Source: Cyanobacteria bacterium auto_48_18 (GTDB lineage: Bacteria > Cyanobacteriota > Vampirovibrionia > Obscuribacterales > Obscuribacteraceae). Taken from it: a stretch of DNA of 64,000 nucleotides. The DNA is taken from NCBI GenBank assembly GCA_036170915.1, contig JAVHQC010000022.1, positions 191,420-255,419 of the forward strand, in the 5' to 3' direction. Position 1 is the stretch's first letter; every line of letters begins with the position of its first letter. Made by a program: the position numbers. Of this stretch, positions 52,501 to 58,500 are shown piece by piece.

Positions 52501-55500
52501 GCATCCGCTGACAACGACGGTGATTGTCATTGCCGCCTGGTATTTGTTGCGGCACTTCATGCATCCTACCGAATTAATTACCACCGCTCAGAAACAGCTC
52601 TACTGGCTCTTGTTTGTACCTATCTTTGCTTCTCTAATTAGTTTGCTACTGATGTCTTTTGCCCTGGCACAGTCATACGGGCGTGTTAGCTGGGTGGCTA
52701 GATTGCTTAGCGTGCCACCAATGCTGGCTGTGGGAAAACTTTCTTACAGCATTTACTTGTGGCACTCTGTGGCCTTTTTCGCTATTACTCAGATATTGGG
52801 AGACGTGGGTATTGTCTCTGATCTGGCTAAAGTGGCGTTTACGCTAGTGGTTGCTACCGCCTCTTATTTCTTGATTGAAAAACCATTCTTGACGATTAAG
52901 AAGCGCATGGCCGTTAGAGCTTTAGATCTGAAACTTGATGACGCAGTAACCGCAGGTGGTGCACAAAAAGTGCCGACTGCCATTTCTACCGGGGTTTAAA
53001 TGACTACTCTCATCACTCCTGTATTGGTTGAAAACAAAGGTGAAAGCGCTGCGCATAGTGAGCCAGCGCCTCCAGTCATCAAGAAAACTGCCATCAAAGA
53101 AGACGGCAATACTTTTAATATCGTCAGGCTTGTTGCGGCATTAATGGTGATTTTCTCGCATTGCTTCCCTCTGCTGGCCAAGCCTGATAGAACTGGCTAC
53201 GGCGAATGGCAAGGGCCCCTGGCTGTGTGGATTTTCTTTGTCATCAGTGGCTTTTTGATTACCGGCAGCTACAAGCACACTGGCAACATAGCCATTTTTA
53301 TTGGTTCGCGAGTACTCAGAGTCTGGCCGGCCTTGATTGCAGTGACTTTGATTTCTGTTTTTCTGATTGGTCCTGCTGTTACAACTTGCAGCCTGCCTGC
53401 ATATTTTGCTGACCCGGCCACCTCTAACTATCTAAAGAATATCCAGCTGCTTTATATTCACTACCCTCTTCCTGGGGTGTTTGAGCACAATTTTTATCCT
53501 GGTGCTGTAAATGGATCAATCTGGTCTATTCCCTTAGAAATACTCATGTATCTGGTCACCTGCGTACTTGGAATTTCAGGCCTGTTGCGTCGTCGTTATT
53601 TGGCTCTGGCAGCATGGACAGTGCTTTTCATTAGCGGCTTGCCCAATATCGGTTCTCCTAATATCGACAAGCTTCAGCCTATTGCCTGGCTGGGTACTCT
53701 GGCAACTATCAAGTATCCGGTGCTGTGCTATTTGACCGGCACACTGCTTTATCTTTTTAAAGAACAAATACGGCCATCCATTCGATTATCGGTTGTACTG
53801 CTGGTGGCCGCTGCACTCTTTGCCAAGATCGATCTCTACACGGCGTCGATAGTGCTCTTACCTCTAGGCATTCTTACTTTCGCCCTGCGGCCAACTAAGA
53901 TCAATTTGTTCAGCAAGCTCGGCGACTATTCTTACGGCATTTATCTGTGGGCTTTCCCTGTGCAACAGCTGCTTGTACATTTCTATCCAAGAATAAGTTT
54001 CTGGCAATTATTCATATTTGCCAGCTTGCTATCAATTGCCTGCGGTGCAATCTCATGGTACATAGTTGAAAAGCCTTGTCTGGCTTTCAAGAAAAAACTA
54101 CCAAAGCTTTACGCCATGTGGGCAGCAGACTAAAAAGCGAAATTTTCTCAGTTAAGCGCAGCTTTAAGCTGGGGCCGACCAGCCAAAGCAGTCTAAAGTG
54201 TCATCAATACTGAGGTTGTTGTCTAAGGCGTATGTCACTGCGATAGTGGCCTGCTCTAGCTGAATCAAATTGTGATCAAGATAAGTTTTGCATTGTGCCG
54301 CCAGTTCAAGCACTCGCTGGTCGATTAATTTGGCGTCAAAAAGAGTTTTCAGCAAAGGTTGTCTGTTAGCTAGAGCTAGAGCTGTTGCTATTTGCAGCTC
54401 TTTATCTGAAAGCAGACCCGCCTTTTTGAGAATGTCGGCGACTTCATATTTAGGTTTCTCGTCTTCTTCATCAGACATTTCATTTAGCGCCGAAAGCGCG
54501 CGGTTGAGGTCTTCATTAGAAGTGGCGAACTGAATCTGTTTAACTATCTGAGCGGCCTGATCTTCAAAGAGCATGCCTTCGCGAATCATCTTCAACAAGT
54601 GGTTAATGGCCTGCATACAAGGGCCAGTAGCAAAGCCGCTTTCCACTATAATCTGGTCCAGCGGTTTCTCTTCAGTCGCTTCCAGCTCACGTGCCGCCAT
54701 CAATTGACTTTCCGAGATGGCACCCGCCATTACCAGCAGTTCACCACTACCGAAATCACCCTGCACAATGGTGGTATCAATATTACTTTCTTGCAGTGAC
54801 TGAGTCAGACTGATGGCTCTAAGCCTGGCATTTTTCAGGGCAAAGATTATTTGATTGCGCTCCGCCACTTCCGTACGTATCAGCTTTTGAGCCATGAGCG
54901 CCGAATTGAGGCCGGCGCGGGTAACAATGCCTTTGCTCAAGAGCACCATCCCCAGTGGCAAGCCACTTTCTGCCGCTGCGATCATACTTTCTTCTACTTG
55001 TTTAGGCGAAACATAACCGGCCTGCATCAAAATTTCGCCCAGGCGATTGCTGGTGGGTACCGGCTTAACTTCGGCTTTAGGTGCCAGTTTGAGCAAGGCG
55101 TCGTCAAGGCTTAAACCTTCTCTAGCGACAATATTGAGAGCGCGCACAGCGTGATCGACGGGCAATGCTTTGTCTTTAATGCGCGATTGCACTTCGATAG
55201 CTGTGGCCAGCAGTGGATCGGACAAATGCCCGTGCATAGTAAGAATGCGGCCAATGGGCAGGCGCATTTTGACCGCTAATCTGTTTACTTCATCCAAAAG
55301 TTCTGGTGCGACGATCCCGCTACGAACAAGCAGATCCCCGATTTGCATTGTGGCAGCGTTGGCTGTCGCTTCTTCGGACATTAATCTCTCTTACTGGTGC
55401 GGGCGAGAACGATAGGGAAGGTGCCTTCTTTAGCCTCGGCATGAGCGTCAACAGCGGCTTGAATTAGTGATTCAAGGTCTTCACCGTCAGAAGGTAGATT

Positions 55501-58500
55501 GGCGACACCAAATGCTAGAGAAAGATTCGCTTTGTCGATGCCAGGCACCAGTGGCGTAACTGTTAATGAGTCGAGTACTCGATTGGCCACAAATGCCGCT
55601 TGTGACGCTCTGGTGTTGGGCATGAGAATGGCGAAATCTTGGCCGTAGAAGTGAGCCAGGGTATCTAGTGGTCTTTTGACCAGACCAATACGTGTAGCCG
55701 CAGTTGCCAGGGCCTCCACCGGTAAAGGATCTTTTTCGATAATGCCACTATTGCCGGTGCGCTTAAGCATTAGTTCGAAGACTACAAGCGACATGGGCCA
55801 GTTGTAAGCATCGTAGCGATAGTATTCGTATTCCATAAAGTAGAGCAAAGCTTCGCAGCTCATCACACCAGTATCGGTGCGTACAAAGTTGTAGGCGAGG
55901 TTTTGAATAATCTGTTTGGAATCGCCCAGAAAATCTAAGGCGCCACCACGGGTAGCGGCAGGTGGCCGAATTTCAAGCAAGTTGCAGTAGAGCAAATTGA
56001 AAAGTAGCGGTGCCCATTGAGTCTGCTCCATCGGCCGATCGCGCAGCAGATCTGTAAAAGTGGTTTTATGTTTGAGCGACTCATAAACTTCTTTTTGCGT
56101 GGCAAAGTCTAGTGGCACACCTTTAGTCAACATCAATTTCAGTTCAGGCTCACCCAGATTTTTTTGTTTCTGAGCCAGAATTGATTCGTAAACCAAACCA
56201 GCTCTCTCAAGAAATTTGAGCTGGTCCAAAAGGGCTATCCCTTCCAACACTGAAGTTTGTAAACTTTTTTCTACCGAATGCATCTCGGTGCGCACGCTCG
56301 GTTTAAAAAGAAAGTTGCCTGAGCGCCAGGTGACCAGTTCTTTAATCGCTTCGTCACCGCGGTTTGTTGAGGTTTGAGCGTCTTTAGGAATTCCGTTTTC
56401 AAAATAAACATGACCTACTGCGGCCGGACCGGCCACTTCCAATTTGCCGGTCAATTGCTGCATACCAATTGTGGTCAGCACATTGTTCATAGGATTGGTT
56501 TCAATAGAGCCCTCCATCTGGGAGGCCGGTCTCACCGGTGCAGCGGCTATGGTGGCCGGAGCATCTGAGAAGAAGTCGGCAGGCAAAGTGCCATCAGGCA
56601 TCTGGTTGCTGGGGGCAACTTGACTAGGAGCTGGACCGGGCTTGACTACAGGGTTGAAGCTGCTGCTGGAAAAACCAGGATTAGGCTGGGGAAAATTATT
56701 GGGTGCCTGAGGCGGTGCCAAGTTGTTGTTAGCGGCGGGCTGATATTGAGCAAAGTTGCCCGTAGCTGAGGCTTGCTGTATTGCCTGGGCAAAACTACCG
56801 CTAGGTGTATTTGCTTGCGTCTGTGGCTGCTGAAAGTTGCCTGTTGGTGGTGATTGAAAACTTCCGCTGGCCTGGTTTTGAAAATTTCCGGTTGATTGAT
56901 TTTGGAAACTTCCTGTCGATTGAGTTTGGGGCACATTCTGGAAACTTGACGACTGTTGGTTAATGGGCTCTACGCGCCAACCGTCAGTAGCAGCAGGATT
57001 AGTCTGTTGCTGGCCATTCGCCTGAGGGTTGGGTACAACAGGCTGATTACCGGAATTGGTGAAGGTTGTGCCCGATGGTGACATAGCAGCCATGCCCTGG
57101 CGCGTACCAAATTGACCGCTCACATTTGGCTTAAATGACCCGGTGGCTTGCGATTGCACCGCCTGCACCGTTCCTGTGGTTTTCTGGTGGGCAACATCAA
57201 GCATGGCCACCACATCGTAGATCATGTGTACGTCTGAAGTTTCAAAACGCCAGACCATCTTCGATTCGCGACCGTCGTTTTCCCAAATGTTCCAGACCGG
57301 ATGGGGCGTTACCCTGTCAAATTTGACGTGGATGCTGAATGACCGATAAGTATCGGGCACCTGCCAAACGAGCTCGACTTCCCGCGCACGATTCTCGCGG
57401 GCTTGCTCGTATAGCGACTGCAGCTCCTTGACGCCTGGTGCGACAGTTTGCTTCGGAAGCCTGATTTTAGATTGGTCGGAACCTCTGCCTGGACGAAACA
57501 TAAGTGATTCTTCATTAGTAATTAGGTTACTAGTTTAAGGTACCACGGCAAGATTGACATCAATCTCACCAATCTCATATACGAAAGAAAAGAGGCAAAG
57601 CTTGTATTACTCTCATGGGAAGCGGGTTGCTGTGTGATAGCATCTTGCCATCTGGTCTTTAGACTTGCTGCTACTCAGGAGTTCCGTGTCGTTTCGAGTT
57701 GAAGTTTCTGCGCTTGCCAAGCGCTATAATATTTACGCCCGCCCGGTTGACCGGCTCAAAGAGCTGATGTGGCGGAATACTCGTAGTTATCACAAAGAAT
57801 ATTGGGCGTTAAGAGACATTAACATCCAATTTGCTCAAGGCGTCACAGCTTTAATTGGCCCCAACGGTTCTGGAAAATCTACGCTTTTACAGATCATTGC
57901 CGGAGTGCTTGAACCCACTGAAGGTACTGTTAAACGAAACGGCCGCATAACAGCCATATTAGAGCTCGGTGCCGGCTTTCAGGCCGACTTTAGCGGCCGC
58001 GAAAATGTGATTTTAAACGGCATGATTTTAGGTATGTCGCAAGACGAAATTATGGGCAGACTCGACTCTATTGCCGAATTTGCTGAACTGGGTGATTTTT
58101 TCGATCAACCAATCAAGACTTATTCAAGCGGTATGGTGGTGCGATTGGCCTTTGCCACCGCAGTTAGTGTGGACCCCGAGATTTTGATTGTAGATGAGGC
58201 CCTGGCAGTGGGCGATTCTTATTTCCAGAAGAAGTGTAAAGACCACATCTGGAAGATGAAAGAGCTTGGTAAGACCATTATTTTTTGTACCCACGATATG
58301 GGCGCGGTTAAAGACTGGTGCCAGCACGCCGTGCTTTTGAATGGCGGAAAAATAATGAGGCAGGGGCCAGTGCAAGAAGTGGTGCCTTTGTTTGAAGAAT
58401 TGATGGACAATCGCGAGCTGGTAGTAGAGAAGAAATTCACTGCACCGGTGGCGGTGGCCAAACCCAAGCGATTCAGCGAGCCACAGTCTGTTTAAGAAGT

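What a model noticed while it worked through the whole genome (the two positions that open the first line are those of the whole stretch)
54164..57501. Order-wide expansion of stand-alone multi-repeat MshEN proteins and a new N-terminal domain on PatA_N-degenerate GGDEF p [...]
About 14 proteins that Pfam misses consist of two to four tandem MshEN-like c-di-GMP-binding modules at a 98-aa period (for example g02206, g02309, g04321). Thirteen others begin with an uncatalogued 80-aa alpha/beta domain joined to PatA_N plus a GGDEF domain without active-site motif, to MshEN, or to a kinase. Together they suggest an Obscuribacterales-specific c-di-GMP receptor network.
Evidence so far: Iterated HMMs: 68 MshEN-like modules in 29 proteins; new domain in 13. 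The profile matches PilF and MshE c-di-GMP domains (E 7e-17, 3e-8) with the RLG..L...G motif. Models: calls 130 (pLDDT 94), 131. Four order genomes hold 4-27 multi-MshEN matches and 6-13 new-domain matches; none in G073 of another order; the new domain is in 0 of 40 other phylum genomes. No GGDEF/GGEEF motif in 13 of 13 DUF4388 proteins. The g02206/g02207 pair is adjacent.
(Added by a program. Inside this text positions count along the whole contig: contig position 191,420 is position 1 of the stretch shown here. "Call 12" and the like, gene names such as g00115 and contig names such as C1 are that model's own, and its searches are not shown. The text may have been shortened before it was handed on; [...] marks where a part breaks off. 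The agent that wrote the report below was given it as the finding of a first reader that could run no searches.)

Follow-up and report, generated by a model that had tools for sequence, protein, structure and literature searches.

The report
Paired c-di-GMP receptor and repeat scaffold
Two adjoining genes, found only in one group of non-photosynthetic relatives of cyanobacteria, encode a dead signalling enzyme that kept its binding site for the messenger c-di-GMP and a four-repeat helical protein predicted to dock on it, which points to a lineage-specific way of reading that messenger.

Summary
P0001 (54164-55381, minus) has four ~98-aa modules. Each is an MshEN_N c-di-GMP motif pair plus a two-helix tail. 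Pfam gives it no match above cut-off, but NCBIfam NF053729 does (84 vs 38 bits). All modules lose MshE Gln32 (Q in 1 of 69) and mostly Arg38; module 4 has lost the site. The genes overlap by one base and are adjacent in 39 of 39 orthologous loci. A complex prediction supports docking of module 4's tail on the GGDEF domain (0.67 vs 0.00 controls; 2 of 3 runs). Both families occur in 25-26 of 26 genomes of the order; the new domain was not found in 95 other class or 200 other phylum genomes. Best reading: an order-specific c-di-GMP receptor-scaffold pair built from known parts. Binding and output are untested. Tandem stand-alone MshEN_N proteins and I-site receptors are in print; this architecture was not found in my searches. 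The scan noted the same pair before in another genome (e1-4048890).

The parts
55381..57501 (-). P0002, 706 aa: NTD - Q/P/S-rich linker - DUF4388 (PATAN) - conserved connector - catalytically dead GGDEF with intact I-site
57175..57471 (-). Uncatalogued N-terminal domain (aa 11-109): helix, four-strand meander, helix; invariant Trp
   Evidence: model pLDDT 93; no Pfam or NCBIfam family below E 0.01; 598 clusters at 50% identity
56527..57174 (-). Low-complexity linker (aa 110-325), poorly conserved (0.49 mean column identity in 38 orthologues)
56218..56514 (-). DUF4388/PATAN domain (aa 330-428) without an inserted MshEN-like repeat
   Evidence: PF14332 42.3 bits vs cut-off 25, 99 residues over profile 1-121; no module hit in P0002
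55912..56211 (-). Conserved ~100-aa connector between DUF4388 and GGDEF, no family match
   Evidence: (0.81 column identity)
55408..55893 (-). Degenerate GGDEF domain (aa 537-698); GGDEF motif reads YGQDF, metal-binding Asp positions read F/L
55663..55674 (-). I-site RxxD (R610-P-L-D613); with R562 and R641 at the positions matching PleD R313 and R390
   Evidence: all four invariant in 38 of 38; PleD numbering from PMC7288161 passage, matched by spacing to the GGDEF motif
55379..55383 (-). Stop-start overlap (TAATG) joining the two genes
54164..55381 (-). P0001, 405 aa, four tandem six-helix modules (MshEN_N core plus two-helix tail)
55073..55351 (-). Module 1 (aa 11-103): G11, G40, Q61 equivalents kept; R9 is Q, L29 is N/Y, Q32 is A/S, R38 is P
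54773..55051 (-). Module 2 (aa 111-203): best-kept site (R9, L10, G11, L39, G40, L54, L58, Q61); Q32 is A/S, R38 is P
54473..54748 (-). Module 3 (aa 212-303): second motif degenerate in this protein and its orthologues (G40 is D/E, Q61 is L)
54173..54451 (-). Module 4 (aa 311-403): site lost (G11, G40, Q61 replaced) yet the most conserved module (0.80); its tail (aa 374-400, 54182-54262) is the main predicted contact to the GGDEF domain

Best explanation
The two genes form one signalling unit for the messenger c-di-GMP. P0002 is a receptor of the PelD/PopA kind: its GGDEF domain cannot make c-di-GMP but binds it at the I-site (inferred, about 0.85). P0001 is a scaffold of four MshEN_N-derived modules. 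Its fourth module has given up nucleotide binding and docks with its extra tail helices on the back face of P0002's GGDEF domain, next to the I-site arginine R641 (predicted, about 0.7). Module 2, and perhaps module 1, still binds c-di-GMP but more weakly than MshE, in the low micromolar range, because Gln32 is replaced by Ala/Ser (inferred, about 0.6). The complex would read the c-di-GMP level at two kinds of site and pass it on through the DUF4388 domain and the NTD. The output is not shown: the pair sits in a surface-glycan locus, while DUF4388 domains of cyanobacteria act on the type IV pilus motor. The genome holds some 17 multi-module paralogues and 13 NTD proteins, which suggests the same logic is used many times. 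Shown: anatomy, conservation, linkage, distribution. Predicted: fold and docking. Inferred: ligand binding and output.
For: I-site RxxD in 52 of 53 NTD-GGDEF proteins among the 150 best cluster representatives plus P0002, and in 9 of 10 such proteins of this genome, while none has a GG(D/E)EF motif. R562, R610, D613, R641 are invariant in 38 of 38 aligned orthologues while the catalytic positions drift. The genome has 12 of 34 GGDEF proteins with an intact motif, 3 EAL and 5 HD_5 matches, and no PilZ or ComFB match (86% complete). Module profile aligns without gaps to MshE 8-59 (E 1.4e-9); the top three structural matches are MshE and PilF domains (Z 8.7/7.9/7.6, rmsd 1.9/3.2/1.9 over 61/60/58 residues). 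Internal control: in 35 four-module proteins of relatives G11 is kept in 34, 34, 35 and 9 of modules 1-4 and Q61 in 34, 35, 27 and 7, so these residues are not needed for the fold alone. MshE Q32A still binds at 4.5 uM (9-fold weaker); proteins with Pro at a motif's first position bind (PilF GSPII-C P335; PA14_29490). The P0002 homologue lies directly upstream in 39 of 39 loci (37 whole ORFs or GGDEF ends, 1 cut by a contig end, 1 frameshifted). Complex prediction: score 0.67, best of 3 controls 0.00; the mark was reached by 116 of 157 solved complexes and 2 of 215 mismatched pairs, counts that hold only roughly with my alignments. Predicted contact residues are more conserved than the rest (0.80 vs 0.72, p 0.018; 0.85 vs 0.73, p 0.005), and F637 and F695 are invariant in 10 orthologues and absent from all 12 paralogues.
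Against: No binding was measured. Gln32 is Q in only 1 of 69 and 1 of 154 modules, and Arg38 is R/K in 7 of 69 and 2 of 154; only 26 of 69 modules keep G11, G40, six hydrophobic positions and Q61 together. PilF GSPII-A does not bind even with the consensus restored (PMC12002112), so motifs do not prove binding. P0001 module 1 has N/Y at L29, where L29A costs 28-fold in MshE. One of three complex runs scored 0.00, agreement between runs was reported as at least 0%, partner pLDDT at least 69, and the alignments were shallow (22 and 10 rows). RxxD is present in 31 of 34 GGDEF domains of this genome, so it may be partly a lineage habit. Only this one of 8 NTD-DUF4388-GGDEF genes adjoins a four-module gene in this genome. 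Z 8.7 is middling for a helical domain, and Foldseek found nothing at E<=0.001. Sites and genomes are not independent, so the p values overstate.
Confidence: 0.42

Rival explanations
1. The repeats are nucleotide-blind helical (alpha-clip) scaffolds. c-di-GMP is sensed only at the I-site of P0002, and P0001 docks on it as a pure adaptor.
For: Family-wide loss of Gln32 and Arg38; module 4 degenerate yet most conserved; module 2 residues 135-150, part of its would-be pocket, are predicted protein contacts; GSPII-A precedent; such repeats are discussed as protein-interaction units in PATAN and PilB (10.1101/2021.06.11.447907).
Against: G11, G40 and Q61 are kept in modules 1-3 and dropped in module 4, which shares the fold; Q32A costs only 9-fold in MshE.
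Confidence: 0.25
2. One reading: the multi-module proteins are independent multi-site c-di-GMP receptors or buffers; the two genes are co-expressed but their products do not bind each other.
For: Most paralogues lie scattered without a GGDEF neighbour (19 of 23 have none within three genes); NF053729 scores well above cut-off; one complex run gave 0.00.
Against: Adjacency in 39 of 39 loci with stop-start overlap in most; score 0.67 vs 0.00; orthologue-specific exposed F637 and F695; module 4 conserved without a site.
Confidence: 0.22
3. The asymmetric pocket (one Gln kept, one lost) reads another nucleotide, such as 3'3'-cGAMP or pGpG, rather than c-di-GMP.
For: Asymmetry is family-wide; MshEN_N binds cGAMP weakly (KD 3.3e-4 M).
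Against: Both Gly positions that read guanine O6/N7 are kept; all 7 cyclases whose substrate-site pattern my regex parsed have Asp, not the Ser of cGAMP-making enzymes (residue rule; 5 other intact-motif proteins were not parsed).
Confidence: 0.06

Closest known systems
MshEN_N domain (V. cholerae MshE, PDB 5HTL; T. thermophilus PilF GSPII-B/C; NCBIfam NF053729)
   Same: 53-residue motif pair aligns without gaps; four-helix fold; G11, G40, Leu clusters and Q61 largely kept in modules 1-3.
   Different: No MshEN_C subdomain and no ATPase; Gln32 replaced by S/A/G and Arg38 mostly by P; a 37-residue tail that is itself a degenerate copy of the motif (HHalign 90.5%, reversed control 0.4%); fixed four-module cassette with position-specific modules (50 of 51 leave-one-out).
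Stand-alone tandem MshEN_N proteins, e.g. Cyanothece cce_1044, Synechocystis Sll0547; expansions in Myxococcus and Acaryochloris
   Same: MshEN_N repeats without other domains; many paralogues per genome (PMC5013675 text and supplement).
   Different: Those listed have two repeats of about 65 aa with the Gln mostly kept and no tail; a four-module MshEN_N-only form, and pairing with a dead GGDEF protein, are not in that paper's Table 4.
Degenerate-GGDEF I-site receptors (P. aeruginosa PelD; also PopA, SgmT, CdgA, the last three mostly from recall)
   Same: Lost catalytic motif, kept RxxD and both accessory arginines; located beside glycan genes, as PelD controls a polysaccharide.
   Different: Soluble; joined to DUF4388 and an uncatalogued NTD; 10 paralogues in one genome; predicted to bind an MshEN-derived scaffold.
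PATAN/DUF4388 regulators (Synechocystis PixE, PixG)
   Same: DUF4388 above cut-off. Cyanobacterial ones bind PilB1 and PilC.
   Different: No receiver domain; the helical repeat insertion typical of PATAN is missing here, while similar repeats sit in the next gene.
E. coli DgcJ-NfrB local signalling pair
   Same: A GGDEF protein binds an MshEN-bearing protein directly (PMC8669469).
   Different: DgcJ is an active cyclase and NfrB a membrane glycosyltransferase; here the GGDEF is dead and the partner has no enzyme domain.
B. subtilis YkuJ (PDB 2FFG)
   Same: Best structural match to the NTD: Z 8.1, rmsd 2.4, 75 residues, next hit Z 6.0.
   Different: 16% identity; no sequence-profile match; the match gives no function.

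Membership tests
MshEN_N c-di-GMP-binding domain | Two 24-residue motifs with a 5-residue spacer | tested here: met
   Ungapped profile match to 5HTL 8-59; NF053729 84.4 vs cut-off 38; 47 of 51 modules at E<=0.001
MshEN_N c-di-GMP-binding domain | Four-helix bundle fold | tested here: met
   Top three matches are MshE/PilF, Z 8.7, rmsd 1.9, 61 aligned; Z is middling and Foldseek gave none at E<=0.001
MshEN_N c-di-GMP-binding domain | Gly11 and Gly40 (guanine read-out) | tested here: met
   45 and 49 of 69 modules; 11/11, 11/10, 11/11 of 12 in modules 1-3 but 2/5 in module 4. In P0001 both are kept in modules 1 and 2 only
MshEN_N c-di-GMP-binding domain | Hydrophobic triads (L10, L25, L29, L39, L54, L58) | tested here: inconclusive
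   All six hydrophobic in 8, 8, 7, 4 of 12 modules 1-4; P0001 module 2 complete, module 1 has N/Y at L29
MshEN_N c-di-GMP-binding domain | Gln32 | tested here: not met
   Q in 1 of 69 and 1 of 154 modules; S/A/G instead. Q32A weakens MshE 9-fold
MshEN_N c-di-GMP-binding domain | Arg38 (or K/L) | tested here: not met
   P in 34 of 69 and 104 of 154; R/K 7 and 2. Pro at such a position occurs in known binders
MshEN_N c-di-GMP-binding domain | Gln61 | tested here: met
   45 of 69; 11, 12, 10, 2 of 12 in modules 1-4
MshEN_N c-di-GMP-binding domain | Measured c-di-GMP binding | not testable with these tools
   needs ITC, DRaCALA or NMR
Full MshEN (PF05157, with MshEN_C) | C-terminal alpha/beta subdomain | tested here: not met
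   No PF05157 hit in P0001 or the paralogues; hits only in the two PilB-like proteins; model all-helical
Degenerate-GGDEF I-site receptor (PelD type) | GGDEF domain with lost catalytic motif and metal ligands | tested here: met
   PF00990 33.6 vs 23.8; YGQDF; Asp positions F/M and L/M
Degenerate-GGDEF I-site receptor (PelD type) | RxxD plus R390- and R313-type arginines | tested here: met
   38 of 38 orthologues; RxxD 52 of 53; positions matched to PleD by spacing, not by a direct alignment
Degenerate-GGDEF I-site receptor (PelD type) | Measured c-di-GMP binding, no cyclase activity | not testable with these tools
   needs an assay
PATAN/DUF4388 | PF14332 above cut-off | tested here: met
   42.3 vs 25
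PATAN/DUF4388 | Inserted pair of alpha-clip repeats | tested here: not met
   99 residues cover profile 1-121; no module hit in P0002
PATAN/DUF4388 | Binding to PilB/PilC | not tested
YkuJ-like domain | Shared fold and ancestry | tested here: inconclusive
   Z 8.1, rmsd 2.4, 75 aligned, 16% identity; no profile match among 36 members

The most novel reading that the evidence does not exclude
Obscuribacterales run a whole c-di-GMP decoding layer on an unreported pairing code: the tail of 'module-4-type' MshEN derivatives recognises the back face of specific GGDEF domains, dead or active, so that some twenty repeat scaffolds, kinases and J-domain proteins each pick their own GGDEF partner, with the new N-terminal domain as a shared address tag. 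All 5 single C-terminal modules in other proteins are of module-4 type, and 3 of 23 module genes adjoin a GGDEF gene against 0.36 expected (the window pair included).
Probability: 0.2. Interest if true: 0.8.

Novelty: new variant of a known kind. Interest (0 to 1): 0.6.

Why it matters
c-di-GMP research has long had more enzymes than receptors. This genome has 34 GGDEF proteins, no PilZ or ComFB match and degenerate motifs in its PilB proteins, so its receptors were unclear. The finding supplies two candidate receptor classes, one uncatalogued domain restricted to the order, and a specific predicted interface in which an MshEN derivative has turned from a nucleotide binder into a GGDEF-docking unit. 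All three can be tested with small soluble fragments made in E. coli, without culturing the organism. It would also show how far the MshEN motif can drift (no Gln32, Pro38) and still bind.

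Tried and rejected
Foldseek on the four-module model: no match at E<=0.001. NTD: nothing in Pfam below E 0.039 or NCBIfam below E 0.016, PDB sequences (best E 0.35), Foldseek or the ESM Atlas (no usable hit); no profile likeness to the rest of P0002. Shared gene neighbourhood of the paralogues: none seen among the 48 flanking genes scanned, one to three per locus for 21 of 40 loci. c-di-GMP-I riboswitch search: no match, but the control also found none, so uninformative. 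Expression: no RNA holder listed. Taxonomic names for NTD cluster members could not be looked up, so NTD hits outside the order among the 598 clusters remain unchecked; only the best 150 were seen, without names. Module-3 positions printed were off by one and were redone. Rejected: active cyclase for P0002 (motif and metal ligands lost); DNA-level repeat or artefact (modules share only 18-23% identity within P0001, and are position-specific); TAL-effector or designed-toroid likeness (E>0.006, rmsd>13); a function for the NTD from YkuJ.

Full report
What is there. The finding covers two minus-strand genes: P0002 (55381-57501, 706 aa) and, downstream, P0001 (54164-55381, 405 aa). They overlap by one base in a TAATG junction. 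They sit inside a surface-glycan locus: rmlA, a polyprenyl sugar transferase, GT2 enzymes, an MBOAT protein, acyltransferases, an ABC ATPase and a sugar dehydratase. Orthologous records are titled mostly Candidatus Obscuribacter, Obscuribacterales or Melainabacteria.

The repeat protein. An HMM iterated from P0001's four repeats over the genome's ORFs converged on 69 near-full modules in 23 proteins, 84 hits in 30 proteins in all. Thirteen proteins have four modules and four have three. The model of P0001 (pLDDT 79, pTM 0.40) shows six helices per module and loose linkers. The first 53 residues of a module align without gaps to MshE 8-59 (E 1.4e-9; PilF 6e-24). The best structural matches among 48161 chains are MshE (Z 8.7, rmsd 1.9, 61 residues) and PilF (7.9, 7.6); Foldseek found none at E<=0.001. 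Pfam gives no match above cut-off because its MshEN model omits the binding helices (stated in the PMC5013675 supplement), but NCBIfam NF053729 scores P0001 at 84.4 against a cut-off of 38. The last 37 residues of each module are a degenerate further copy of the motif (HHalign 90.5%, reversed control 0.4%). Modules are position-specific: 50 of 51 were assigned to their own position in a leave-one-protein-out test, and all 5 single C-terminal modules in other proteins are of module-4 type. So the four-module cassette was duplicated as a unit.

Do the modules keep the site? Mapped on MshE numbering: G11 in 45 of 69, G40 in 49, Q61 in 45, R/K9 in 33, but Q32 in 1 (S, A or G instead) and R/K38 in 7 (P in 34). 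In 154 modules from relatives, a set biased to top hits and P0001 orthologues, Q32 is again 1 and P38 104. By position, in 35 four-module proteins of relatives, G11 is kept in 34, 34, 35, 9 and Q61 in 34, 35, 27, 7. Module 4 therefore has the fold without the site, which argues that these residues are kept in modules 1-3 for a ligand. In P0001's own orthologues only module 2 keeps the full remaining set; module 1 has Q at 9 and N/Y at 29, module 3 has lost G40 and Q61, module 4 has lost G11, G40 and Q61. Published mutants set the scale: MshE Q32A binds at 4.5 uM (9-fold weaker), L29A 28-fold weaker, G11L not at all. Pro at a motif's first position occurs in binders (PilF GSPII-C; PA14_29490). 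Against this, PilF GSPII-A does not bind even with the consensus restored. I put binding by module 2 at about 0.6.

The upstream protein. P0002 has an N-terminal domain (NTD, aa 11-109), a low-complexity linker, DUF4388 (330-428), a conserved connector and a GGDEF domain. The NTD is in 13 proteins of the genome: 8 with DUF4388 and GGDEF, 2 with GGDEF only, 2 with modules, 1 with a kinase and modules. It folds confidently (pLDDT 93), matches no Pfam, NCBIfam or PDB sequence and resembles YkuJ at Z 8.1 only. A profile search of 1.84 billion representatives gave 598 clusters at E<=0.001. Among the best 150, my profiles read 33 as NTD-DUF4388-GGDEF, 19 as NTD-GGDEF, 51 as NTD with modules, 9 as NTD-DUF4388, 1 as two NTDs and 37 as NTD alone, many of these short (its tally of 34 includes P0002). 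The GGDEF domains are dead: the motif reads YGQDF in P0002 and the metal-binding aspartates are F and L. But the I-site is intact: RxxD, five residues before the motif, in 52 of 53 NTD-GGDEF proteins, and R562, R610, D613 and R641 are invariant in 38 of 38 orthologues while the catalytic positions vary. These match the four I-site residues of PleD (R313, R359, D362, R390) by spacing. A caution: 31 of 34 GGDEF domains in this genome have RxxD.

Is c-di-GMP made here? 12 of 34 GGDEF proteins have an intact motif; there are 3 EAL and 5 HD_5 matches, and no PilZ or ComFB match in an 86%-complete genome. The MshEN motifs of the two PilB-like proteins are themselves degenerate.

Distribution. In two of those, checked with the module profile, all 9 matches ended at or before position 61 of 93, so they lack the tail. 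The NTD matched 25 of 26 order genomes and 0 of 95 other class genomes, and 0 of 200 phylum genomes outside G000, a set that partly overlaps the former. These are samples: not found in those searched.

The two genes belong together. In 39 loci holding a P0001 orthologue, 37 have the GGDEF gene directly upstream on the same strand, mostly with a 1- or 4-base overlap; the other two have it cut by a contig end or frameshifted. The 9 loci overlap this set and are not added. In 21 of 39 a homologue of the window's glycan genes is among the next two ORFs downstream. A complex prediction of P0002 326-700 with P0001 10-404 scored 0.67 against 0.00 for the best of 3 controls; runs gave 0.00, 0.67 and 0.68, agreement at least 0%, partner pLDDT at least 69. 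The mark was reached by 116 of 157 solved complexes and 2 of 215 mismatched pairs, counts that hold only roughly with my alignments. This supports binding; it does not show it. I know of no solved MshEN-GGDEF complex (recall) that the model could be copying. The surest contacts join the GGDEF helix 631-645 and the C-terminal FPIVL strand to module 4's tail (376-400); modules 2 and 3 add contacts near the I-site. Contact residues are more conserved than others among orthologues thinned to 90% identity (0.80 vs 0.72, n 18; 0.85 vs 0.73, n 20), and F637 and F695 are invariant in 10 orthologues and absent from 12 paralogues. This explains why module 4 is the most conserved module (0.80) although it has no site. 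Genome-wide, 3 of 23 module genes adjoin a GGDEF gene against 0.36 expected (p 0.005), but one of the three is the window pair itself and I did not recompute without it; the other two pairs recur in relatives (L097, L099).

How it most likely works. P0002 binds c-di-GMP at its I-site, as PelD does; P0001 is held on it through module 4 and adds one or two weaker sites. The output is open. Cyanobacterial DUF4388 domains bind PilB1 and PilC, and usually carry the same helical repeats as an insertion; here the insertion is missing from the DUF4388 domain and the repeats lie in the next gene. The glycan neighbourhood suggests control of surface polysaccharide instead. Neither was tested.

Compared with what is known. 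Tandem stand-alone MshEN_N proteins, large paralogue sets and MshEN-kinase fusions are in print; so are I-site receptors and a direct GGDEF-MshEN protein pair, DgcJ-NfrB. Not found in my searches: any paper with both Obscuribacterales and c-di-GMP (0); Melainabacteria with c-di-GMP gave 3 listings, none on this by title; searches listed nothing on this architecture. The library lacks most subscription papers. The ESM Atlas holds clusters of 866 and 213 such proteins under automatic names only. The scan noted this pair, I-site included, in another genome (e1-4048890); I had found the I-site before seeing it and do not count it as support.

What I read. PMC5013675: parts 1-3 of 7 of the text and parts 1-4 of 5 of supplement 1. 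PMC11731258: part 1 of 11, section 4 and passages. PMC12002112: section 6 and passages. 10.1101/2021.06.11.447907: passages and Discussion; its supplements were not seen and may bear on where PATAN binds PilB1. PMC7288161, PMC4624772, PMC8669469: passages. Others: search listings only.

Verdict. Real, order-restricted, and built from known parts in a new arrangement, with one uncatalogued domain and a testable predicted interface. New variant of a known kind; interest 0.6.

Noticed in passing
G000 C17:71322, C29:320237, C36:138413, C36:117835, C17:59103, C6:99118, C25:37649 (five held as L032, L039, L040, L013, L038): Seven small (231-238 aa) stand-alone GGDEF proteins with RxxD; six have lost the catalytic motif, one reads GGEEL. 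A second likely receptor family; one lies tail to tail with a four-module gene, also in L097.
   Followed up: partly
L033:5052-7118 and L034:4980-6587: PilB and a PilB-like protein with only the start of the ATPase domain have degenerate MshEN motifs (E at R9, S/T at G40; NF053729 33.4 and 42.6 bits), so the pilus motor may not read c-di-GMP directly.
   Followed up: partly
L010:11512-15191: NTD-module gene directly upstream of an intact-motif REC/Hpt/GGDEF cyclase; the same order in L099.
   Followed up: partly
L020:5003-6385, L021:4982-5785, L019:4999-7713: Single modules joined to J-domain-like regions (DnaJ hit in L020 only); two are of module-4 type.
   Followed up: no
L003:5001-7364, L004:5022-6995, L009:5062-8701: Four-module cassettes fused to, or followed by, TPR domains; the L009 protein ends in a run of unknown bases.
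   Followed up: no
L036:1040-2743, L036:15323-17284, L017:4662-6578, L037:5031-7622: Four DUF4388 proteins without NTD or GGDEF; one has a near-canonical MshEN half-motif.
   Followed up: no
window 43733-53000 and 57665-63534: Surface-glycan locus around the pair: dTDP-rhamnose genes, sugar transferases, MBOAT and acyltransferases, ABC ATPase; the 953-aa membrane protein at 59476-62337 has no Pfam or NCBIfam match.
   Followed up: partly
L136:1993-3965: The P0002 orthologue is split by a frameshift in this record, real or an assembly error.
   Followed up: no
G039: The one order genome without an NTD match (97% complete) still has a four-module protein.
   Followed up: no
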